Origin: Escherichia phage vB_EcoM_VR20
DNA: 64,000 nucleotides
Sequence record: NC_028894.1
Reading direction: 5' to 3' (one strand)
The notes beneath the pieces are model-generated. The model saw only the letters and a list, made by a program, of their open reading frames with translations. It was not told the DNA's origin and ran no database searches. Each line of letters opens with the position of its first letter. The stretch's first letter is position 1. A program made the translations under genes and the position numbers. Below, piece by piece: positions 2,083-57,231 of this stretch.

Positions 2083-2102
2083 GGGCCTTGCGGCCCTTTT
2101 TT
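2083..2102 (+). terminator. Hairpin gggcc-ttgc-ggccc plus T-run after gene 24
   Basis: GC stem followed by TTTTTT seen directly; between convergent genes 24 and rnlB. Confidence 0.6.
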
Positions 2103-3108
2103 ATTCACTAATTAATGCAATCCAAACATGTCTTAATGTTTCTCTTACATTTGCGATGAGTTGCTTTTTAACTTCAACAGGATTTTCCGTCAGAGTCAAT
2201 TCAAGGCCTTCGCGACCGGCTTCTTCCAGAATATCTTGGACCGTTAGCCCCATTACCTTTCCAAAATCCTTCGGTGATACTTCACCAATCTTACTGATAA
2301 CATTATTGATGCGGTTAACAGTCACATAATCAGTGAAATTCCACAGTAAATCCATATCATTTTGGCTCAGAACCACTGCAGCCTTAATAGGCTTATCAGA
2401 CTTTTTCTTTTCACTGAATTTAGAGTTCTTACATTTAATCGCTACGCGCTCGCCGTTAGGTAACCATGCAGGAACATCAGGTTTTAATACAAATCCTTCA
2501 GCAGTGAATACTTTACCTTCCACCTTTGCATCAAAATCAGTGGTATTTGCTGTAGTCAAACCCGCGTTATCCACTGTAAAATTGTAATCAGGGACAACAG
2601 AATCCAGGTCATTAGGGAGCTTAATTAATTCTTCAAAACTACCTGTAGCCAGGCGCGGCGCAACCTTAAACTTATGGATAATACAGAATGCTTCCATAAG
2701 GGTGTCAGTCAGGACAGATTCAGTCCCATCTTCTTTAGTAACGCGGATATCAAATACATAAAAATCTTTATCACCGTAATCCACATTCTTCTGGATACCT
2801 GCCCCGGCAAACTCACCATAAATCTGGTATGCCTGGTAATTAATATCCTGCAAAAGTTTCTGCACAGATTTAATAGAATCTGCATAGTTCTTTAATACAA
2901 TTTCATAACCATAGAAATCTTCTGCAGGCAGGATAGGTCCAGTGCGTTTCGCACATGTCACATTGTCTTGTTCAATGATTAATGAAAAGTTGGTACCATG
3001 AATCTTCTCGCGAGCTACCCATTCACCGCTGGTGAAGCCTTGCAGGCGAATCTTTTCAATGAACTTGTTGTTATAGTGATTTTCAAGGCTGTTGTATTTC
3101 TTAAACAT
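2101..3108 (-). CDS. rnlB: RNA ligase 2
   Basis: 335 aa; N-terminus [14 protein letters not shown] with the ligase lysine motif, matching recalled T4 Rnl2. Confidence 0.85.
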
Positions 3109-3207
3109 AATCTCTCACTTTTGATGTTATAAATATCATTATAAATTAGACCCACTATACTTTCTTTCTCTGAAAGGAATTAATAGTCACAAAGGGGTCT
3201 AGAACCA

Positions 3208-3232
3208 TTATACCACAATTTTATTTTAAGCA
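3208..3232 (-). promoter_or_regulatory. MotA-type middle promoter upstream of rnlB (TGCTTAA box, about 13 bp, TATAAT)
   Basis: Minus strand reads TGCTTAAAATAAAATTGTGGTATAAT; shares the motif ggtctagaaccattata with the uvsY promoter. Confidence 0.45.
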
Positions 3233-5627: not shown

Positions 5628-5645
5628 GATGAACCTCGGTTAGTG

Positions 5646-5653
5646 TATAAATA
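5646..5653 (+). promoter_or_regulatory. T4-type late promoter TATAAATA upstream of uvsW
   Basis: Exact TATAAATA about 30 bp upstream of the uvsW ATG. Confidence 0.55.
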
Positions 5654-5681
5654 TAGATATATTTATTACCTTGGAATCATC

Positions 5682-7181
5682 ATGGATATTAAAATCAACT
5701 TTCTAAATTTTAGTCACGTGCATGTTGAATGTGAAGATGGAATCTTCTACGAACTCCGTGATTACTTCAGCTTCGAAGCTGAAAACTATCGCTTCAATCC
5801 AAAGTTCAAGCAGGGAGTTTGGGACGGACGAATCCGCCTCCTGGATTACAATCGTAAATTACCATACGGTTTGGTTAATCAAATTAAAAAGTTCGCTGAC
5901 CAGTTTGGTTATTCATTCTGGATTGACCCGCAAATCACCGAGAAAGAAGAAATCTCTCGCGAAGAATTCGACAAATGGGTCGAGTCAAAAGAAATCTATT
6001 CAGGCAATACCAAGATAACGCCCCATTGGTATCAATCTGACGCCGTATATGATGGTCTGGTCAACAGAAGAAAGATTCTGAACTTACCTACGTCTGCGGG
6101 TAAAAGCCTCATCCAGGCGCTTCTGGCGCGATATTATCTCGAGAACTATGAAGGCAAGGTTCTTATCCTTGTTCCTACAACTGCCCTTGTCGACCAGATG
6201 ATTAATGACTTTGTTGATTATCGGCTTTTCCCTCGTGCAGCTTGTCTGGGTATTCGTTCCGGGACTAAACGCGATTCTGATGCGATGATTTATGTATCGA
6301 CTTATCAGACGGCTGTAAAACAACCTAAAGAATGGTTTGAACAGTTTGGCCAGTTTATGAATGACGAATGCCACATGGCTACAGGTAAATCGATTTCGAC
6401 GGTTATCGAAGGCCTTACGAATTGCATGTTTAAATTTGGTTTGTCAGGTTCACTCCGTGATGGCAAAGCCAACCTTATGCAATATATGGGTCTGTTTGGT
6501 GATATCTTTAAACCAGTATCAACATCTAAATTAATGGAAGATGGCCAGGTTACTGACCTTAAAATAAATAGTATTTTCCTTCGTTACCCTGACGAATTCA
6601 CCGTTAAAATGAAAGGTAAAACTTATCAGGATGAAATCAAGGTAATTACAAAAGCTACACGCAGAAATAAATGGGTAACAAACCTTGCACTCAAGCTTTC
6701 TAAAAAAGATGAAAACGTCTTTTTGATGTTTAAGAATATCGAGCATGGTAAATCGATGTTTGAAATGATTAAAGAAGCTGGTCATGAGAAAGTGTATTAT
6801 GTTTCCGGGGAAGTTGATACCGAAACCCGTAATGCTCTGAAGGTCATGGCAGAGAATGGAAAGGGAATTATTGTTGTAGCTTCATATGGTGTATTCTCAA
6901 CGGGGATTTCCGTTAAAAACCTCCATCATATTATTTTCGCTCACCCGGTCAAGTCAAAGGTAATTGTACTCCAGACAATTGGCCGCGTGCTTCGAAAACA
7001 TGAATCCAAATCGACCGCAAACGTGTGGGACATTGTGGATGATATGGGGGTCAAACCCAAATCAGCAAACGCTAAAAAGAAATATGTTCATATTAACTTT
7101 GCGCTTAAACATGCACTAGAACGTATTCAGCGGTATGCAGACGAAAAATTCAATTATGTAATTAAACAGGTGGAAATATAA
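5682..7181 (+). CDS. uvsW: UvsW RNA-DNA and DNA-DNA helicase
   Basis: Starts MDIKINF..; Walker A TSAGKS; strong recalled identity to T4 UvsW. Track start at 5643 is a GTG. Confidence 0.9.
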   Translation: MDIKINFLNFSHVHVECEDGIFYELRDYFSFEAENYRFNPKFKQGVWDGRIRLLDYNRKLPYGLVNQIKKFADQFGYSFWIDPQITEKEEISREEFDKWVESKEIYSGNTKITPHWYQSDAVYDGLVNRRKILNLPTSAGKSLIQALLARYYLENYEGKVLILVPTTALVDQMINDFVDYRLFPRAACLGIRSGTKRDSDAMIYVSTYQTAVKQPKEWFEQFGQFMNDECHMATGKSISTVIEGLTNCMFKFGLSGSLRDGKANLMQYMGLFGDIFKPVSTSKLMEDGQVTDLKINSIFLRYPDEFTVKMKGKTYQDEIKVITKATRRNKWVTNLALKLSKKDENVFLMFKNIEHGKSMFEMIKEAGHEKVYYVSGEVDTETRNALKVMAENGKGIIVVASYGVFSTGISVKNLHHIIFAHPVKSKVIVLQTIGRVLRKHESKSTANVWDIVDDMGVKPKSANAKKKYVHINFALKHALERIQRYADEKFNYVIKQVEI

Positions 7182-7633: not shown

Positions 7634-7661
7634 GATTGTCTCCTCAGTTAAACTTACATAT

Positions 7662-7778
7662 CTATTTAGTGCTCTTCATAATAGCAGCACGAGCTTTCAT
7701 CTCGTTAACAATTTCAGTTATTCGGTTTGCAGAGATAACCATCTCGTCGAGAATCTTACTAATATTCTGTTTCATCAT
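7662..7778 (-). CDS. Small protein (T4 uvsY.-1 position)
   Basis: 38 aa, MMKQNISKILDEMV..; ATG overlaps the uvsY stop (ATGA coupling). Confidence 0.5.
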   Translation of the reverse strand: MMKQNISKILDEMVISANRITEIVNEMKARAAIMKSTK

Positions 7779-8209
7779 TTACCTGCCTCGAATTGTCTTA
7801 TTTCTAACATATGTTTAAGTGCGAAACTTCGTGACTTAACACCATCTAATGCAGCGCTACAGAAGTCCTGGAGCAGTGCCCAATACTGAATTGAAGTATC
7901 AATCTTCAACACGCTTGAATCTGCGGCCATGACTGTTTTCAATTCTGACTTCTCGTATACATCCATGCATACTTCTTCCCCTGGGTCACCCCTTCCCGTA
8001 TAATGGTCTAGTCGTTTTTTCAGTGCAGTTTTCTTCTGAATCTCAAGACGCATTATTTCTTTCTTGCAGTTGGTATACAATCTCAACCATTTGCTATGCA
8101 ACAAAACGTTGTTTTGTGTTTCATATTGAAGTTGTGTACCATCAATTTTTAAATCTGCATCTAACTCGTCCTGAAATACTTCTAACTTATATTCAATCTC
8201 TTTTTTCAT
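7775..8209 (-). CDS. uvsY: UvsY recombination mediator
   Basis: Recalled T4 UvsY identity (QLQYE..HSKWL, C-terminal IRQFEAGK); internal ATG gives 144 aa. Confidence 0.85.
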   Translation of the reverse strand: MKKEIEYKLEVFQDELDADLKIDGTQLQYETQNNVLLHSKWLRLYTNCKKEIMRLEIQKKTALKKRLDHYTGRGDPGEEVCMDVYEKSELKTVMAADSSVLKIDTSIQYWALLQDFCSAALDGVKSRSFALKHMLEIRQFEAGK

Positions 8210-8237
8210 AATGTATCCAATGTAAGGGTCTAGAACC

Positions 8238-8262
8238 ATTATACAGCCATAAAATTAAAGCA
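8238..8262 (-). promoter_or_regulatory. MotA-type middle promoter of uvsY; candidate oriF-like origin element
   Basis: Minus strand GCTTTA box, 12 bp, TATAAT; T4 oriF coincides with the uvsY middle promoter. Confidence 0.45.
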
Positions 8263-8652
8263 TTAACCGTTTTGACTTAGCTGAATCCTGATTTGTTCGA
8301 GGGTATCAGGGTCATCAACAATGCTGAACTGAACCGTTACGATAATGGAGTTATCATCATACATAGGGACAACTGCAACCTGTAGATTGCTTATCCTTGG
8401 TTCGAAGTTCCGCACCGCGGAGACGATGTTGCGTTTAATGGTATCTGTGATTAATGGAGTGATATTCTCAAAAAGCTGATTACTTATATCACATCCAAAT
8501 TCAGGCATAAAAGGCCTTGACCCTTTTCTTGTGGTGATTATTCCCAGAAGACTGTTCTTAACAGACCTTGCACCGGTTACTTTAGCAACGTCTTTATCCC
8601 AACTCATTGACAAGTCAGGAGACACATCGCTATACATTTTGTTTATATTCAT
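8263..8652 (-). CDS. 25: Baseplate wedge subunit gp25
   Basis: 129 aa; recalled T4 gp25 identity (LLGIITTRKGSRPF.PEFGCD). Confidence 0.9.
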   Translation of the reverse strand: MNINKMYSDVSPDLSMSWDKDVAKVTGARSVKNSLLGIITTRKGSRPFMPEFGCDISNQLFENITPLITDTIKRNIVSAVRNFEPRISNLQVAVVPMYDDNSIIVTVQFSIVDDPDTLEQIRIQLSQNG

Positions 8653-9293: not shown

Positions 9294-9305
9294 TATTTAT
9301 AAATA
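9294..9305. promoter_or_regulatory. Divergent late promoter tatttataaata serving 26 (minus) and 51 (plus)
   Basis: Palindromic sequence contains TATAAATA on both strands between divergent late genes. Confidence 0.55.
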
Positions 9306-42021: not shown

Positions 42022-42966
42022 TTAATAAAATTCAGCAATATTTGCAGTTAGTTTAGACAGACCAGACTTAACAAAGTAAGGATAAACTTTACTTTTGGCT
42101 GGGATAACGTAGTTATTATATCGTTCTAAGATTGAAGCGGATATTTCCGTTGGGATAAAGTCCATATCAATCAACAATTGGTTTTCACAGAATCTATTAT
42201 ATTGCTCTTCTGTTAAAAGCGTTTTCAAAACGTCATGGTCGTAATAGTTGAGTGCAATTTGTTCAAGCTCAGCTGCGCGGGTTGGCGGAGTACGTTCACC
42301 TTCTTCATGAGTGTAATAAAAATCACCACGAACCTTGATGCTCGACACGTTATCTTTTTTGTCGCCTTTAACAACCTTTGTCACGCAATCCATAAGGGCA
42401 TCGCCTGATTTAGTTTTGACATATTTTTTCTGCATCGGGGACCATTGTTTCACCCCAGGGAATTTATGCAACTGCGTAAAGTCACCATCCGAAGAAACAA
42501 TCATAACCGGATGTCCGAGACCAGTGAGCAACTTCGTTAATACTGCAATATGGTCATCAGCCTCAACTTTATCCATATTCATCACGATGTAAGGCATATG
42601 TTTTTCCATTTCATCGATAATGATGTGCATAGCAGCATGTAGACCTTCCCAATCGAATTGAGACTCTTCACGAGCTTTCGCTCGGTTTTTCTTATAATAA
42701 TAAGATTTCGTCCGGCGCCAATAACCATTCTTCGAGTTATCAACACAAATAATTGGAATCGTATAACCGAGCTTCTTGAACTGCACAATATTTTTTCTGA
42801 TGGAGTTCAGAACCAGGTGACGGGTCATTGCGGTTGTTACCTTTGGATAACCAGCGTCTTTGCCGAATTCCTGGAAGGCTGCAGCCATGATGAGCTGACT
42901 AAAATCGAGTAACTGAAAACCATCTTTTTGACGGTCTTCTTCAGGGAGTAAAAAATCTAAATTCAT
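42022..42966 (-). CDS. rnh: RNase H, 5'-3' exonuclease
   Basis: 314 aa (T4 305); FEN-like acidic motifs; between dsbA and gene 34. Confidence 0.85.
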   Translation of the reverse strand: MNLDFLLPEEDRQKDGFQLLDFSQLIMAAAFQEFGKDAGYPKVTTAMTRHLVLNSIRKNIVQFKKLGYTIPIICVDNSKNGYWRRTKSYYYKKNRAKAREESQFDWEGLHAAMHIIIDEMEKHMPYIVMNMDKVEADDHIAVLTKLLTGLGHPVMIVSSDGDFTQLHKFPGVKQWSPMQKKYVKTKSGDALMDCVTKVVKGDKKDNVSSIKVRGDFYYTHEEGERTPPTRAAELEQIALNYYDHDVLKTLLTEEQYNRFCENQLLIDMDFIPTEISASILERYNNYVIPAKSKVYPYFVKSGLSKLTANIAEFY

Positions 42967-43061: not shown

Positions 43062-46000
43062 ATGGCCGATATTTTAAAACCAGCATTCAGAGCAACATCC
43101 GGTCTCGATGCTGCTGGTGAGAAAGTCATTAATGTCGCGAAAGCTGATTACTCAGTTTTGTCAGACGGCGTTAACGTAGATTTCTTTATAGAAGAAAACA
43201 CAGTTCAACAATATGATGCAACGCGCGGATACAAAAAGAACTTCGCAGTTATTAATGATAACCGTATTTGGGTTGCTCAGCGTGATATTGATGCTCCAGC
43301 AGGAGCATTTACCCCTCAGTATTGGTTAGCAACCCGTACTGACCCTAAATGGGAAACTGTTGCATCTCCAACTCGTCAGCTTAATTCAGGTGAATTTATC
43401 GCAGTCGACTCAGCTGCAAGCTTTACCACATTTACATTGCCTCCGAACCCGACTGATGGTGATACCATCGTTATTAAAGATATCGGCGGCAATACTGGTT
43501 ATAATGAAATCAAAGTTCAATCGAGCAACGTGCCTGGTCAAGGTAACCAAAAAATTGTTCGTTTTGGTAATCAGTATTCAGAAGTTTTAATTACCAAACC
43601 GTTCTCTTATAATATGCTTATTTTCTCCAACCGCCTTTGGCAGTTCTGGGAAGCAGGTAACGAAGAACGCGGAATAAGAATTGAACCAAGCTCTGGTAAA
43701 TATCGAACTCAAGCATCAGATTTTATTATGCGTCATTATACGACTGCAGAAAAAATTACATTTGTTCTTCCTAAGTATGCTAACCAAGGTGATATTGTCA
43801 AATCGGTAGACATAGATGGATTAGGGCCATTATATCACCTGGATGTTGAAACGTTTGACGAGTCAAGCTCTCTGGGTAAACAGGGCCAACACAGTATGGA
43901 ATTCCGTACAACTGGTGATGGCTTCTTCGTGTATAACGCAGTTGAAAAACTGTGGGTAACCTGGGACGGTGATAACAAAACTCGTTTGCGTGTAATTCGT
44001 GACAATGTAAAATTGTTACCAAACGAAAGTATCATCGTGTTCGGTAATGATAACAACACCTCGCAGACAATTAACATTGACCTTCCAACAGGTGTTCGTC
44101 AGGGTGATGTTGTTAAGATTGCTCTGAACTATCTCCGCAAGGCACAGACGGTTAATATTAGAGCTTCGGCTACTGATAAAATTGCATCTTCTGTTCAGTT
44201 GCTTCAGTTCCCGAAACGTTCGGAATATCCGCCGGACACTGAATGGGTATTTGTTGACTCTTTGACTTTCAATGGTAATATAAGTTATACTCCGGTTATT
44301 GAATTAAGTTACATGGAAGATACGGTTAATAACATTAACTACTGGGTTGTTGCTCAGAACGTTCCGACTATTGAGCGTGTTGACTCGAAGGATGATTTGA
44401 CCCGTGCTCGTCTGGGTGTTATTGCATTAGCTAACCAGGCTCAGGCTAACGTTGACCATGAAAATAACCCTGAAAAAGAATTAGCAATTACCCCGCAGAC
44501 TTTGGCTAACCGTGTGGCTACTGAATCACGTCGTGGTATTGCACGAATTGCTAACACTGCCCAGGTGAACCAGGATACGACTTTTGCTTTCCAGGACGAC
44601 ATCATCATCTCTCCGAAAAAGTTAAACGAACGTACAGCTACAGAAACACGTCGTGGTGTCGCAGAAATCGCCACACAACAAGAAACTGATGCAGGCACTG
44701 ATGATACTACCATCATCACTCCACGCAAGCTACAAGCTCGTCAGGGCTCAGAAAGCCTATCTGGTATCGTTAAGTATGTTCCTACTACCGGGACTACTCC
44801 AGCGACTTCTAGAGCAACTATAGGTACTAACGTTTATAATAAAAATACAACTACTCTGGTAATTTCTCCGAAAGCTTTGGACCAATATAAAGCTGACCAG
44901 AACAACCAAGGTGCTGTATATCTGGCTACTCAGTCAGAAGTTAACGCGGGGGCAACAAATACAGGATTCAGTAACTCGGCAGTGACTCCTGAAACATTAG
45001 GTGCCCGCAGAGCAACAGATTCAAACCATGGTTTAATCGAGATTGCAACTCAAGCAGAAGTTAATACAGGAACCGATTATACCAGAGCTGTGACTCCTAA
45101 AACGTTGAATGACCGTAAAGCAACAGAATCATTATCCGGCATAGCCGAGATTGCTACGCAATCAGAATTTGATAGTGGTACTGATGATACTCGTATTGCA
45201 ACGCCATTAAAAATTAAAACTAGACTGAATGATACTGCTCGTACTTCTGTTATTGCAGCAAGTGGTTTAGTAGAAACAGGGACGCTCTGGGACCATTATA
45301 CGCTGAATATTCTTGAAGCAAATGAGACTCAACGTGGCACCGCAAGACTGGCTACTCAACTTGAAGTTAATACTGGTACTGACGATAAAACAATCGTTAC
45401 TCCGCTTAAGTTGATGTCGAAAAAAGCCACAGAAGGCACCGAAGGTATTGTTCGCATCGCTACTCGTGCAGAAACTATCGCAGGAACAAGTTCAATCCTG
45501 GCTGTTTCTCCGGTTAGTCTGAAATGGATTGCACAGTCCGAACCAACATGGGCAGCAACCACGACGACCCGCGGCTTTGCTAAGATGTCTGAAGGCGCAA
45601 TTACTTTTGTCGGTAATGCAACTGCAGGTTCGACCCAGGCTCTTGACCTGTACGAGAAAAATAGCTATGCTATCTCTCCGTATGAGTTAAACAAAACCCT
45701 TGGTAACTTCCTGCCGCGTTTGGCTAAAGCAGCAGACTCGGATAAACTGGATAACCTGGATAGCACGCAGTTCATTCGTCGTGATATTGACCAAATCGTT
45801 GAAGGTACATTAACCCTTAGAAAGAACATAAGAGTTGATGGTCAGCTGGCGACTGGTGGTACCGGTGAATTTGGCGGCTCGTTGGCGGCTAACTCCACAT
45901 TTACTATACGCAACACAGGAACTCCGACCCGTATCGTTTTCGAAAAAGGTCCTGCCTCCGGTGCAAACCCGGTTCAGTCAATGAGCATCCGTGTATGGGG

Positions 46001-46961
46001 TAACCAGTATGGTGGCGGTTCGGATACGACTCGTTCTACCGTGTTTGAAGTCGGTGATGAAACATCTAACCACTTTTATTCGCAACGGAATAATCTTGGT
46101 AATATTACTTTCAGCATAAACGGTACAGTTCAACCGATTAACGTTAATGCATCCGGAACATTGAATGCTAATGGCGCGGCAACATTTGGACGTTCGGTGA
46201 CAGCACAAGGTGAATTTATAACCTATAGTGCAAACGCATTTAGAGCTATTAATGGTAATTACGGATTCTTTATTCGTAACGATAATGCTAATATCTATTT
46301 TATGCTAACTAATTCAGGTGACCAGACCGGTGGTTTTAATGGATTACGTCCTTTAGCTATTAATAATGCATCTGGCCAGGTTACAATTGGCGAAGGATTA
46401 ATTATTGCTAAAGGAGCTACTATAAATTCAGGTGGTTTAACTGTTAACTCAAGAATTCGTTCTCAAGGTGCTAAACCCGCTGACCTTTATTCTAGAAAAC
46501 CTGATGCAGATAATACAGGCTTCTGGTCTGTTGAAGTTAATGACTCTGCGACATATAATCAGTTCCCGGGTTATTTCAAAATGGTTGAAAAGACCAATGA
46601 AGTAACTGGCCTGCCTTATTTGGAGCGTGGTGAAGAAGTTAAATCACCGGGTACATTAACTCAGTTTGGTAATACGCTGAATTCACTCTATCAAGACTGG
46701 ATTACTTATCCGAATACGGCTAATGCCAGCACGACCCGCTGGACTCGTACATGGCAGCAGAACAAAAACGCATGGTCTGGTTTTGTTCAGGTCTTTGATG
46801 GTGGTAACCCGCCGCAGCCGTCGGATATTGGTGCATTGCCTGCTGATAACGCTTCGATGAGTAACCTGACCATCAGGGATTGGTTAAGAATCGGTAACGT
46901 ACGTATTGTTCCGGACCCAGTAACTAAATCCGTTAAATTCGAATGGATTGATACACCATAA
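43062..46961 (+). CDS. 34: Long tail fibre proximal subunit gp34
   Basis: 1299 aa (T4 1289); internal repeats of the ..ETRRG.AEIATQ.E.. type. Confidence 0.9.
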   Translation: MADILKPAFRATSGLDAAGEKVINVAKADYSVLSDGVNVDFFIEENTVQQYDATRGYKKNFAVINDNRIWVAQRDIDAPAGAFTPQYWLATRTDPKWETVASPTRQLNSGEFIAVDSAASFTTFTLPPNPTDGDTIVIKDIGGNTGYNEIKVQSSNVPGQGNQKIVRFGNQYSEVLITKPFSYNMLIFSNRLWQFWEAGNEERGIRIEPSSGKYRTQASDFIMRHYTTAEKITFVLPKYANQGDIVKSVDIDGLGPLYHLDVETFDESSSLGKQGQHSMEFRTTGDGFFVYNAVEKLWVTWDGDNKTRLRVIRDNVKLLPNESIIVFGNDNNTSQTINIDLPTGVRQGDVVKIALNYLRKAQTVNIRASATDKIASSVQLLQFPKRSEYPPDTEWVFVDSLTFNGNISYTPVIELSYMEDTVNNINYWVVAQNVPTIERVDSKDDLTRARLGVIALANQAQANVDHENNPEKELAITPQTLANRVATESRRGIARIANTAQVNQDTTFAFQDDIIISPKKLNERTATETRRGVAEIATQQETDAGTDDTTIITPRKLQARQGSESLSGIVKYVPTTGTTPATSRATIGTNVYNKNTTTLVISPKALDQYKADQNNQGAVYLATQSEVNAGATNTGFSNSAVTPETLGARRATDSNHGLIEIATQAEVNTGTDYTRAVTPKTLNDRKATESLSGIAEIATQSEFDSGTDDTRIATPLKIKTRLNDTARTSVIAASGLVETGTLWDHYTLNILEANETQRGTARLATQLEVNTGTDDKTIVTPLKLMSKKATEGTEGIVRIATRAETIAGTSSILAVSPVSLKWIAQSEPTWAATTTTRGFAKMSEGAITFVGNATAGSTQALDLYEKNSYAISPYELNKTLGNFLPRLAKAADSDKLDNLDSTQFIRRDIDQIVEGTLTLRKNIRVDGQLATGGTGEFGGSLAANSTFTIRNTGTPTRIVFEKGPASGANPVQSMSIRVWGNQYGGGSDTTRSTVFEVGDETSNHFYSQRNNLGNITFSINGTVQPINVNASGTLNANGAATFGRSVTAQGEFITYSANAFRAINGNYGFFIRNDNANIYFMLTNSGDQTGGFNGLRPLAINNASGQVTIGEGLIIAKGATINSGGLTVNSRIRSQGAKPADLYSRKPDADNTGFWSVEVNDSATYNQFPGYFKMVEKTNEVTGLPYLERGEEVKSPGTLTQFGNTLNSLYQDWITYPNTANASTTRWTRTWQQNKNAWSGFVQVFDGGNPPQPSDIGALPADNASMSNLTIRDWLRIGNVRIVPDPVTKSVKFEWIDTP

Positions 46962-53656: not shown

Positions 53657-54310
53657 ATGGAACCAAAAGTAGGAATCTCAATACCCGACCTACTTTTTGG
53701 ACTTCTTGATAGAATTTTTAAAGATAATGCAACCGGGAAAGTTGTCTTTTCCCGGGTACTAGTTATTGTTCTATTATTTTTAATGGCGGTAATCTGGTAT
53801 AAAGGTGATGCAATTTTAGATGCGTATAGGGATGCTTCATATGCCTCGTACACAGAAATGATAAGGCAAGACCAGGATAACAGATTTAAAATTGCAGCTA
53901 TCGAGCAAATCCAGATAGTTCACTCATCAAGCGGAGCAGACTTTACAGCGATATATTCCTTTAGACCAACTAACCTTAACTACTTCGTGGATATGGTGGG
54001 GTACGAGGGGATATTACCTGAATCAGTTGACGAAAAAAATTTGGGTGGGTTTCCAATAGATAAGACTTCAGCGGAATATTTGGCGGGGGTTAATGGTAAT
54101 TATTTTGAATCCGGCACGGAATCTGTATTCTTACCAACAAAGAAAAAAAGCAGCTTCGAATATATGTTCAGCTGCCCATTCTTTAATTTGGAAAACGTTT
54201 ACGCAGGCACAGTCTCGTTGTACTGGTATAAGCAAAAACCCGACCTTAGTTTTGATAGGCTTTCTGCTATGTGTGGGCAAGCAGGTCGTACGCTCGGGCG
54301 TACACGTTAG
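53657..54310 (+). CDS. t: Holin T
   Basis: 217 aa (T4 218); single N-terminal transmembrane helix; LFG.LDR.FKDNATGKV matches recalled T4 T. Confidence 0.88.
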   Translation: MEPKVGISIPDLLFGLLDRIFKDNATGKVVFSRVLVIVLLFLMAVIWYKGDAILDAYRDASYASYTEMIRQDQDNRFKIAAIEQIQIVHSSSGADFTAIYSFRPTNLNYFVDMVGYEGILPESVDEKNLGGFPIDKTSAEYLAGVNGNYFESGTESVFLPTKKKSSFEYMFSCPFFNLENVYAGTVSLYWYKQKPDLSFDRLSAMCGQAGRTLGRTR

Positions 54311-54582
54311 AATCCGGAGGTATACATCATCAGATATCGGTGTATATCTTCGAATCCTTCGTTAAATTGTTCAATGATTTGTTCAATTTCATCTTCAGAT
54401 AAACTTTTAAACAACTTGTTAAACGATACATTGTTTAACTCATTACCATTCTCATTCCTTAATCCCAACTCATTCAAAAACGCGATAAACACATCACGCT
54501 TCATCGTAATATCTTCCCGGTCGGTTTTAATCAAAATAGATGTAACGGTAACAATTTCAGAAACGATTTCAAATTTAGTCAT
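54307..54582 (-). CDS. asiA: Anti-sigma-70 protein AsiA
   Basis: 91 aa (T4 90); ..VTSILIK..REDI....FIAFLNE.G and FNEGFE..HRYL.MYT match recalled T4 AsiA. Confidence 0.82.
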   Translation of the reverse strand: MTKFEIVSEIVTVTSILIKTDREDITMKRDVFIAFLNELGLRNENGNELNNVSFNKLFKSLSEDEIEQIIEQFNEGFEDIHRYLMMYTSGF

Positions 54583-56622: not shown

Positions 56623-57231
56623 TCACTTTAAGATGTTAATAACATGTTGAATGTTTTCAGTTGACATAACGTTGTCAATGTAGGTATTCAATCCACCCAC
56701 TTTAACGCTAAATCCCACGTCTGTAAACTGTTTTACTATCTTTTGTTCAGTATTATACGCATGCACGCGAATCTGACCATCACGACGAACATCAATCTGT
56801 TTTAATGTCTTGACACGCTTGAACTTCACAATCAGATTGCTGCGGTCTTCTGAAATGCTCTTAAAGTCAATACCAATAGACAACAATTGCTCTTTGATAT
56901 ATTCTGCAGTCGCTTCCATTTCATCAGTCACACCGCGTTTTGTTCTTGTCTTCTTCACTTCCAGAAGGTCGGGATTATTTTCATTCGCCCAAAGTTCAGC
57001 TGCATCCAGAATAAGGTCAACACCTTTTTCTGTAACCATCAAACCATCACCAGAAGCTTCAACATAGTTGTTATTCAACAATGTCTGTACGCTATCAATT
57101 GATGTGTTCTGCTGGTCTAAAACAACCTCTGGACTCACAAAGTTGTTTTTGTATACAAACACCAGAGCATTGACATCAGTCTCATGCAGCGCGTTCTGGG
57201 AGCATTTAACGATATAATTTAACTTGTTCAC
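56623..57231 (-). CDS. motA: Middle transcription activator MotA
   Basis: 202 aa (T4 211); matches recalled T4 MotA (..ASGDGL..TEKG.DLI..AAELWA.EN.P.LL). Confidence 0.85.
   Translation of the reverse strand: MNKLNYIVKCSQNALHETDVNALVFVYKNNFVSPEVVLDQQNTSIDSVQTLLNNNYVEASGDGLMVTEKGVDLILDAAELWANENNPDLLEVKKTRTKRGVTDEMEATAEYIKEQLLSIGIDFKSISEDRSNLIVKFKRVKTLKQIDVRRDGQIRVHAYNTEQKIVKQFTDVGFSVKVGGLNTYIDNVMSTENIQHVINILK

What the first reader, a model, noticed from the sequence alone, without database searches (positions are those of the whole stretch)
8210..8262. uvsY middle promoter as a candidate oriF-type replication origin
A MotA box (GCTTTA), 12-bp spacer and TATAAT lie directly upstream of uvsY, followed by an A/T-rich leader. 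In T4 this promoter and its downstream unwinding element form origin oriF.
Basis: established knowledge. Interest (0 to 1): 0.35.

Follow-up and report, generated by a model that had tools for sequence, protein, structure and literature searches.

The report
uvsY middle promoter, possible oriF counterpart
This is the phage-activated promoter in front of the recombination gene uvsY of a T4-like coliphage, sitting exactly where T4 has its oriF replication origin; the promoter is solid, but whether it also starts DNA replication here cannot be decided from sequence.

Summary
On the minus strand, the gene 25 stop codon (TAA) runs straight into TGCTTTA, a 12-bp spacer, TATAAT, a 28-nt leader and the uvsY ATG (8265..8207). 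This is a perfect match to the published T4 middle-promoter consensus, with 2 exact hits in the window against 0.02 expected.

The window is an SP18/VR7-type (Gaprivervirus) phage. It encodes MotA, AsiA, RNase H, gp59 and UvsW. The element is the positional orthologue of T4 PuvsY/oriF. TATAAT is kept in 27 of 30 related loci, and the box is replaced by host-type elements in relatives reported to lack motA.

The origin claim is only partly supported. A low-stability, 78% A+T segment does follow the promoter (8221..8172), but it lies mostly inside uvsY, and the leader itself is of average composition. My calibration on 35 mapped T4 middle promoters shows that downstream A+T richness does not separate T4's two proven origins from ordinary promoters. 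Origin function therefore rests on orthology alone (about 0.45).

By-product: an antisense promoter inside gene 34, the counterpart of T4 oriG, is conserved at synonymous sites across 12 lineages.

Verdict: an ordinary, expected element and a new member of a known kind.

The parts
8256..8265 (-). MotA box with its A/T-rich 5' flank: TAATGCTTTA. It is a 10/10 match to the consensus (a/t)(a/t)(a/t)TGCTTtA. Its first three bases are the TAA stop codon of gene 25.
   Evidence: Sequence; consensus (PMC2988021); enrichment; same position as T4 TAATGCTTCA.
8244..8255 (-). 12-bp spacer ATTTTATGGCTG between the MotA box and the -10 element.
   Evidence: The consensus spacing is 12+/-1. T4 PuvsY has 13.
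8238..8243 (-). -10 element TATAAT, a perfect sigma-70 -10. There is no -35 element 16-18 bp upstream.
   Evidence: The sigma-70 scan finds no -35/-10 promoter here. TATAAT is present in 27 of 30 related loci plus T4, and invariant in the 11 motA+ lineages aligned.
8231..8231 (-). Predicted transcription start (A), 7 nt after the -10 element. It is inferred by alignment to the mapped T4 PuvsY start at 115371.
   Evidence: T4 start site, and its position relative to TATAAT. Inference only; not mapped in this phage.
8229..8243 (-). TATAATGGTTCTAGA: the -10 element plus the conserved discriminator and start region. It is shared with two other minus-strand promoter-like sites in the window.
   Evidence: 3 matches against 0.02 expected. 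A GG-TYTAG-TCC-like stretch follows TATAAT in most lineages.
8172..8221 (-). Candidate downstream unwinding element (+11..+60). It is 78% A+T with duplex dG -53.4 kcal/mol, in the weakest 0.4% of 50-nt windows in the window (z 2.6), and the RNA-like strand is 64% purine. It covers the last 12 nt of the leader and uvsY codons 1-13.
   Evidence: For comparison, the T4 oriF segment +11..+60 is 74% A+T with dG -55.0. The measure is not diagnostic.
7775..8209 (-). uvsY coding sequence (144 aa, 62% identical to T4 UvsY). The longer 154-aa ORF starting at ATG 8239 is probably an annotation artefact.
   Evidence: Pfam UvsY; alignment. The ATG at 8239 lies inside the -10 element, upstream of the predicted start, and the equivalent frames in T4 and L006 hit stop codons.
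8263..8652 (-). Gene 25 (baseplate wedge). Its stop codon abuts the MotA box, as in T4.
   Evidence: Pfam GPW_gp25; T4 layout.
56623..57231 (-). motA, the activator that reads the MotA box (33% identical to T4 MotA over its full length).
   Evidence: Pfam MotA_activ and MotCF; BLASTP.
54307..54582 (-). asiA, the co-activator and anti-sigma factor (53% identical to T4 AsiA).
   Evidence: Pfam AsiA; BLASTP.
42022..42966 (-). rnh (T4-type RNase H), the enzyme thought to process the R-loop RNA into a primer in T4.
   Evidence: Pfam; role as stated (PMC3016281).
40805..41473 (-). Gene 59, the helicase loader.
   Evidence: Pfam T4_Gp59_N and T4_Gp59_C.
5646..7181 (+). uvsW helicase (likely start ATG 5682), preceded by a late-promoter motif TATAAATA at 5646..5653. 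In T4, late-made UvsW unwinds the origin R-loops and shuts them off.
   Evidence: Pfam UvsW_N and helicase domains; TATAAATA; role as stated.

Best explanation
The element is the MotA/AsiA-dependent middle promoter of uvsY in a Gaprivervirus (SP18/VR7-type T4-like coliphage), and it is the positional orthologue of T4 PuvsY.

Mechanism, inferred from T4:
1. Early-made AsiA remodels region 4 of host sigma-70.
2. MotA then binds the box TAATGCTTTA centred near -30, while sigma-70 region 2 binds TATAAT.
3. Transcription starts near 8231 and runs leftwards through uvsY and the small downstream ORFs.
4. This gives prereplicative expression of the recombination mediator, independent of the late transcripts that enter from genes 26 and 25.

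Shown here: the motif, its non-random occurrence, its orthology, its conservation, and the presence of motA and asiA. Inferred: MotA dependence and the start site.

A second role as an oriF-type origin is plausible by orthology but undemonstrated; I put it at about 0.45. In that role the same transcript would stay annealed to the unstable segment 8221..8172 as an R-loop, be trimmed by RNase H, and prime leading-strand synthesis. Late-made UvsW would later remove the R-loop.
For: Motif and chance:
- Perfect consensus match at the stated place.
- 2 exact hits against 0.02 expected.
- The looser pattern TGCTTNA-N11-13-TANNNT gives 11 hits against 3.1 expected, 10 of them on the strand of the prereplicative genes. 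A T4-like MotA-box grammar is therefore in use in this genome.
- There is no -35 element, so an activator is needed.
- motA and asiA are in the window.

Orthology:
- The closest records are Gaprivervirus phages at 96-99% identity.
- T4 has TAA-TGCTTCA-13 bp-TATAAT at the same gene 25/uvsY junction.

Conservation:
- 27 of 30 related loci keep TATAAT, and 25 keep a GCTT core 12-13 bp upstream, right after the gene 25 stop. The leader beyond is variable.

Co-variation:
- Relatives of the groups reported to lack motA (RB49 and RB43 groups) keep a promoter at this spot but with an extended -10 (TGATATGAT) or a -35 element (TTGACT) in place of the box.

For the origin sub-claim:
- T4 oriF is annotated at +51 of this promoter.
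- The window's +11..+60 segment is at least as unstable as T4's.
- rnh, gene 59 and a late-promoter-driven uvsW are present.
- The counterpart of T4's other R-loop origin promoter, P34i, is conserved at synonymous sites. This suggests the origin system as a whole is maintained in this lineage.
Against: Against the promoter reading: almost nothing. MotA is only 33% identical to T4's, so its specificity is assumed rather than shown, and no transcript mapping exists for this phage.

Against the origin sub-claim:
- In T4, downstream A+T richness or duplex stability does not separate origins from non-origins. PuvsY ranks 6/35 and P34i 27/35, and several non-origin promoters are more extreme.
- Low stability around a start codon is expected for any translation initiation region.
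- The untranslated leader is short (ATG at +23 against +45 in T4). The putative DUE would be translated RNA, which I would expect (my inference) to disfavour R-loops.
- The RNA:DNA-hybrid-minus-duplex energy is unremarkable (p 0.33).
- Only 2 of about 60 T4 middle promoters were recovered as autonomously replicating origins.
- The searchable library holds no origin mapping for any non-T4 relative.
Confidence: 0.85

Rival explanations
1. The promoter is also an active oriF-type R-loop replication origin. The uvsY transcript forms a persistent RNA-DNA hybrid in the unstable 50 bp downstream, is processed by RNase H, and primes leading-strand synthesis leftwards. The gp59/41/61 primosome loads on the displaced strand, and UvsW shuts the origin off late.
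For: - Positional orthology to T4 oriF.
- The minimal-origin definition, promoter plus A+T-rich DUE, is met at sequence level.
- The DUE is not sequence-specific in T4 and can be replaced by heterologous elements, so sequence divergence does not count against it.
- All trans factors are present, and uvsW sits behind a late promoter.
- The oriG-type antisense promoter is under purifying selection in the same lineage.
- The 5' 100 nt of the transcript is unstructured, as in T4.
Against: - The sequence criteria do not discriminate in T4 itself.
- The leader is short, and most of the candidate DUE is coding.
- The hybrid-versus-duplex energy is unremarkable.
- GC skew follows gene orientation only.
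- There are no experimental data for this phage group.
Confidence: 0.45
2. It is a promoter only. The element drives middle-mode uvsY expression and has no replication role in this phage; origin activity at this site is a T4 or Tequatrovirus peculiarity.
For: - Every conserved feature (box, -10 element, position after gene 25) is explained by the need to express uvsY before replication.
- motA-less relatives keep a promoter here too, so the conserved function is transcription.
- Most middle promoters are not origins.
- The leader is half T4's length.
Against: - The downstream segment is more unstable relative to its genome than T4's own DUE (z 2.6 against 1.65).
- It is less stable than the locus mean in all 32 loci examined.
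- The sister origin promoter P34i is conserved, and origin function is its only known role in T4.
Confidence: 0.45
3. It is a host-type (early) sigma-70 promoter that works without MotA, through its perfect -10 element.
For: - TATAAT is a perfect -10 element.
- Relatives of the motA-less groups use MotA-independent promoters at this position.
Against: - No -35 match was found at 16-18 bp.
- TG directly abuts TATAAT instead of having the TGn spacing of an extended -10 element.
- A perfect MotA box sits at the canonical distance, and motA and asiA are encoded.
Confidence: 0.07
4. It is a chance motif with no function.
For: Short A+T-rich motifs are common in a 60% A+T genome.
Against: - 0.02 matches expected against 2 found.
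- The position is identical to T4's, and the element is conserved across lineages whose UvsY is only 54-66% identical.
Confidence: 0.01

Closest known systems
T4 PuvsY / oriF, also called ori(uvsY)
   Same: - Same genomic position: the gene 25 stop codon abuts the MotA box, with uvsY downstream.
- Same architecture: TAA-TGCTTyA, 12-13 bp, TATAAT, start 7 nt later.
- An A+T-rich, purine-rich, unstructured first 60 nt.
- The same trans factors are encoded (MotA, AsiA, RNase H, gp59, UvsW).

   Different: - Box TGCTTTA with a 12-bp spacer (closer to consensus), against TGCTTCA with 13 bp in T4.
- Leader of 22 nt from the start site, against 44 nt in T4, so the unstable segment is mainly uvsY codons 1-13 rather than untranslated leader.
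- UvsY carries 7 extra N-terminal residues.
- MotA is only 33% identical.
- Origin activity is demonstrated for T4 only.
T4 P34i / oriG, also called ori(34)
   Same: It is also a MotA-type promoter whose transcript is thought to form an origin R-loop. The window has its counterpart at 45320..45295 with the same TATAATGGTCCCAGAG sequence.
   Different: It lies antisense inside a late structural gene, has no gene to express, and its first 50 nt downstream are not A+T-rich. It is a separate locus from the finding.
Ordinary T4 middle promoters (about 60 mapped, for example P39, P45, PuvsX)
   Same: Same MotA box and -10 grammar, and the same dependence on AsiA and MotA. Many have equally A+T-rich downstream regions.
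   Different: They are not known to act as origins. The window element differs from them only in being orthologous to the one at uvsY.
R-loop primed origins elsewhere (ColE1 RNA II, E. coli oriK sites)
   Same: A transcript that persists as an RNA-DNA hybrid and is used as the leading-strand primer (comparison drawn, PMC3016281).
   Different: ColE1 depends on a specific RNA II fold and host RNase H/Pol I (my own knowledge). T4-type origins need no specific sequence in the unwinding element. No RNA family match was found in the window.

Membership tests
T4-type MotA-dependent middle promoter | MotA box (a/t)(a/t)(a/t)TGCTTtA centred near -30 | tested here: met
   TAATGCTTTA at 8265..8256, a 10/10 match (consensus).
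T4-type MotA-dependent middle promoter | Box placed 12+/-1 bp upstream of a good sigma-70 -10 element (TAtaaT) | tested here: met
   12-bp spacer and a perfect TATAAT.
T4-type MotA-dependent middle promoter | No functional sigma-70 -35 element (it is replaced by the box) | tested here: met
   The sigma-70 scan reports no -35/-10 pair at this site.
T4-type MotA-dependent middle promoter | Phage encodes MotA and AsiA | tested here: met
   Pfam MotA_activ and MotCF (56623..57231) and AsiA (54307..54582); 33% and 53% identity to T4.
T4-type MotA-dependent middle promoter | Transcription from the site depends on MotA/AsiA in vivo or in vitro | not testable with these tools
   Indirect support only. 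The box is absent at this junction in relatives of the motA-less groups, and the genome-wide motif enrichment is strand-biased.
T4 oriF-type R-loop replication origin | A middle-mode promoter within the roughly 100-bp minimal origin | tested here: met
   See the rows above; definition (PMC3016281).
T4 oriF-type R-loop replication origin | [quoted passage not shown] | tested here: inconclusive
   Segment 8221..8172 is 78% A+T and in the weakest 0.4% of windows, so the feature is formally present. But the same measure does not separate origins from non-origins among 35 T4 middle promoters, and the segment overlaps a translation start.
T4 oriF-type R-loop replication origin | Positional orthology to oriF (the gene 25/uvsY junction) | tested here: met
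   The T4 rep_origin is annotated at +51 of PuvsY.
T4 oriF-type R-loop replication origin | The transcript forms a persistent R-loop in the DUE, with the non-template strand hypersensitive | not testable with these tools
   Needs DRIP or chemical probing. The computed hybrid-minus-duplex energy is unremarkable.
T4 oriF-type R-loop replication origin | Drives autonomous plasmid replication during infection, or gives a bubble arc or copy-number peak in the phage genome | not testable with these tools
   No experimental data were found for this phage group.
T4 oriF-type R-loop replication origin | Accessory machinery: RNase H, the gp59 loader, and late-expressed UvsW for shut-off | tested here: met
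   rnh and uvsW; gp59; TATAAATA 29 nt upstream of the likely uvsW start.

The most novel reading that the evidence does not exclude
Both of T4's MotA-promoter R-loop origins (oriF at uvsY and oriG inside gene 34) are maintained by selection across the Tevenvirinae, including this Gaprivervirus.

The signature of that selection is synonymous-site constraint on the antisense gene 34 promoter. That promoter shares a -10/start-region motif, TATAATGGTYCYAGA, with the uvsY promoter.

If so, the window's uvsY promoter is a working origin despite its short leader. Comparing lineages could then give the still-unknown rules for which middle promoters form origin R-loops.
Probability: 0.35. Interest if true: 0.45.

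Novelty: new member of a known kind. Interest (0 to 1): 0.22.

Why it matters
On its own it matters little. It is the expected orthologue of a textbook T4 element in a close relative, useful mainly for correct annotation. That covers the promoter, the probable true uvsY start at 8209, and a candidate origin.

It could matter slightly more as comparative material. [quoted passage not shown] This phage offers diverged versions of both elements: a shorter leader at uvsY, and a gene 34 promoter kept at synonymous sites. These could be swapped into the established plasmid-replication assay.

My calibration also gives a caution for genome annotators: 'middle promoter plus A+T-rich downstream' is not a valid predictor of T4-type origins.

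Tried and rejected
- **GC/AT skew.** Cumulative skew turns where gene orientation turns (about 9-10 kb and about 44 kb). It reflects transcription direction and gives no independent origin signal.
- **Nearest-neighbour duplex stability as a DUE detector.** It gives a nice outlier here, but it failed calibration on T4. I keep it as 'consistent with', not as evidence.
- **RNA:DNA hybrid minus DNA duplex energy, and purine content of the transcript.** The window element is unremarkable (p 0.33 and 0.06), and T4's origins are only mildly enriched.
- **RNA folding of the first 100 nt.** No structure beyond shuffled controls in either the window or T4.
- **Rfam scan of the whole window.** No matches.
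- **Generic sigma-70 promoter and terminator scan.** Nothing at the site, and no terminator between gene 25 and uvsY.
- **Literature search for origin mapping or oriF conservation in T4 relatives.** Nothing found in the searchable library. Searches were malformed queries.
- **The shared post-(-10) motif TATAATGGTYCYAGA as an origin-specific signature.** Rejected as specific. It also precedes rnlB in the window, and similar TATAATGG starts occur at the T4 non-origin promoters P24.3 and PrIIB2.
- **The long 154-aa uvsY ORF starting at 8239.** Rejected as the real start (see parts).

Full report
**What is in the sequence.** The feature lies on the minus strand. Reading 5' to 3', the end of gene 25 (...GGT TAA) runs directly into TGCTTTA (8262..8256). 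Then come the 12-bp spacer ATTTTATGGCTG (8255..8244), TATAAT (8243..8238) and a 28-nt stretch GGTTCTAGACCCTTACATTGGATACATT (8237..8210). After that comes ATG AAA AAA GAG..., the start of a 144-aa protein that matches Pfam UvsY at E 1.6e-50. The upstream ORF is gp25, the baseplate wedge protein.

With the three preceding bases the box reads TAATGCTTTA. That is a 10/10 match to the published MotA-box consensus (a/t)(a/t)(a/t)TGCTTtA, which lies 12+/-1 bp from the -10 element TAtaaT (PMC2988021).

**Is it more than chance?** GCTTTA-N11-13-TATAAT occurs twice in the 64 kb on both strands, against 0.02 expected from dinucleotide-preserving shuffles. The looser pattern TGCTTNA-N11-13-TANNNT occurs 11 times against 3.1 expected, and no shuffle reached 11. 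Ten of those 11 hits are on the minus strand, the strand of the prereplicative genes in this region. No sigma-70 -35 hexamer accompanies the -10 element, so an activator is needed.

**What the genome is.** The region is 96-99% identical to Gaprivervirus phages (PSD2001, SP18, VR7, VR25, VR26). These are T4 relatives whose UvsY is 62% identical to T4's. Gene order around the site is that of T4: uvsW, uvsW.1, uvsY.-2, uvsY, 25, 26, 51, 27.

The window also encodes these factors:
- AsiA (54307..54582, 53% identical to T4) and MotA (56623..57231, 33% identical to T4);
- T4-type RNase H (42022..42966), gp32 and gp59;
- UvsW, preceded by a late-promoter motif TATAAATA at 5646..5653.

**Orthology with T4 PuvsY/oriF.** T4 has the same layout at the same junction: TAA-TGCTTCA, 13 bp, TATAAT. 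The mapped PuvsY start is 115371, 7 nt after the -10 element. The T4 record places oriF at 115321, which is +51, six bases into uvsY. By alignment, the window's start should be the A at 8231.

**Conservation.** I collected 30 uvsY loci from IMG/VR with 54-99% UvsY identity.
- 27 of the 30 keep an exact TATAAT.
- 25 keep a GCTT core 12-13 bp upstream, placed 0-4 nt after the gene 25 stop.
- The rest of the leader is freely variable in length and sequence, with the ATG anywhere from +23 to +56.

The RB49 and RB43 groups are reported to lack motA (PMC1524935). In relatives of those groups the promoter is still there but the box is not. An RB49-type phage has an extended -10 element (TGATATGAT), and RB43 has TTGACT, 16 bp, TATAAT. 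This co-variation is good indirect evidence that the box in motA-positive phages, including this one, is read by MotA. I am confident (about 0.85-0.9) that the element is the MotA-dependent middle promoter of uvsY.

[quoted passage not shown] According to the review:
- the promoter's transcript forms a persistent R-loop in the DUE;
- the DUE needs no specific sequence and can be replaced by heterologous elements;
- RNase H probably trims the RNA to a primer;
- late-made UvsW removes the R-loops.

I tested what can be tested. The leader proper is not A+T-rich: 17 of 28 bases (61%), against 59.5% for the window. However, +11..+60 (8221..8172) is 78% A+T. Its nearest-neighbour duplex energy is -53.4 kcal/mol, in the weakest 0.4% of all 50-nt windows (z 2.6). 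T4's corresponding segment is 74% A+T at -55.0 kcal/mol, in the weakest 4% of my T4 sample. So a DUE-like segment exists, but it consists mainly of uvsY codons 1-13. These include a 7-residue N-terminal extension (KKEIEYK) that T4 lacks.

**Calibration.** I applied the same measures to 35 T4 middle promoters with mapped start sites (Table 1 of PMC2988021). In each case I checked that a -10 element sits at the right distance. The two experimentally proven R-loop origins do not stand out.
- On +11..+60 stability, PuvsY ranks 6th of 35 and P34i (oriG) 27th.
- On A+T content, they rank 13th and 31st-32nd.
- Non-origin promoters such as P46, Pagt.4, PmobB and PdsbA(2) have more unstable downstream regions.

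'Middle promoter followed by A+T-rich DNA' is therefore not diagnostic of an origin even in T4. A start codon region is expected to be A+T-rich anyway. Other measures added nothing: hybrid-minus-duplex energy, transcript folding, GC skew and Rfam. The origin reading thus rests on positional orthology plus the presence of the machinery. It is weakened by the short untranslated leader (ATG at +23 against +45). I estimate about 0.45.

**An indirect argument from the other origin.** The window has a second promoter-like site, TGCTTCA, 13 bp, TATAAT-GGTCCCAGAG, at 45320..45295. It lies antisense inside the tail-fibre gene 34, exactly where T4 has P34i/oriG. An antisense promoter inside a late structural gene has no obvious gene to express, and its only known role in T4 is the origin.

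I aligned this gp34 segment from 12 lineages more than 5% divergent in DNA and 52-97% identical in protein. There are 55 invariant amino-acid columns with degenerate codons, and only 6 of them use a single codon in all lineages. Three of those 6 are His-CAT and Tyr-TAT (antisense: the -10 element) and Ala-GCA (antisense: the TGC of TGCTT). The two codons in the spacer vary freely. The chance that all three element codons fall among the 6 is C(6,3)/C(55,3) = 7.6e-4. The most divergent locus (L055, 49% identity) has lost both elements.

This suggests selection on the antisense promoter across the subfamily. It makes it more likely that the T4-type origin system as a whole operates in this phage, which is why I do not put the oriF probability lower.

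**Comparison and novelty.** The element works like T4 PuvsY and is an orthologue of it. As a middle promoter it meets every sequence-level criterion. As an oriF-type origin it meets the positional and compositional criteria, but the defining properties are experimental and untested. It is a new member of a known kind, of low interest in itself.

**Verdict.** Interest 0.22.

Noticed in passing
window 45295..45320 (minus strand), inside gene 34 (43062..46961, +): An antisense MotA-type promoter, TGCTTCA, 13 bp, TATAAT-GGTCCCAGAG, sits at the position of T4 P34i/oriG. Across 12 diverged lineages, the codons under the -10 element (His CAT, Tyr TAT) and the box core (Ala GCA) are 3 of only 6 invariant-codon columns among 55, while the spacer codons vary (p about 8e-4). 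The most divergent homologue (L055) has lost both elements. This suggests purifying selection on an oriG-type element across the Tevenvirinae.
   Followed up: yes
window 3198..3212, 8229..8243 and 45286..45300 (all minus strand): The 15-mer TATAATGGTYCYAGA (the -10 element plus the start region) occurs three times against 0.02 expected. The sites are upstream of rnlB (2101..3108), upstream of uvsY, and antisense in gene 34. A similar GG-TYTAG-TCC stretch follows the uvsY -10 element in most lineages, although the rest of the leader is variable. Similar TATAATGG starts occur at the T4 promoters P24.3 and PrIIB2, so it is not origin-specific. Its function is unknown; it may be a favoured discriminator and initial transcribed sequence.
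   Followed up: partly
window 8207..8239 (minus strand): The longest uvsY ORF (154 aa, ATG at 8239, as annotated in the SP18 record) starts inside the TATAAT box, upstream of the predicted transcription start. The equivalent frames in T4 and L006 run into stop codons. The conserved start is ATG 8209 (144 aa), so related GenBank records probably over-extend uvsY by 10 codons.
   Followed up: partly
window 7634..7778: Compared with SP18 and most relatives, the window (like PSD2001, P896 and CJ20) lacks about 230 bp between uvsY and uvsY.-2. Only a 38-aa ORF (7662..7778) remains where SP18 has the 77-aa uvsY.-1.
   Followed up: no
window 5643..5690 and 9294..9305: T4-type late promoter motifs (TATAAATA) lie 29 nt upstream of the likely uvsW start (ATG 5682; the listed ORF begins at an upstream GTG at 5643). 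An overlapping divergent pair lies between genes 26 and 51. This is consistent with T4's late expression of the R-loop-removing helicase.
   Followed up: partly
window 3110..3205 (minus strand): The roughly 80-nt leader of the rnlB-type promoter contains an inverted repeat, TAGACCC...GGGTCTA, flanking about 40 nt, just upstream of the rnlB start. It was not analysed further.
   Followed up: no
T4 loci L018-L022 against T4 (L001 2830..2872): T4 carries a tandem duplication, CCAATAACAA-CCAATAACAA, in the oriF leader/DUE. Several other Tequatrovirus genomes have a single copy (ATG at +35 instead of +45). The length of the oriF unwinding element therefore varies even among close T4 relatives.
   Followed up: no
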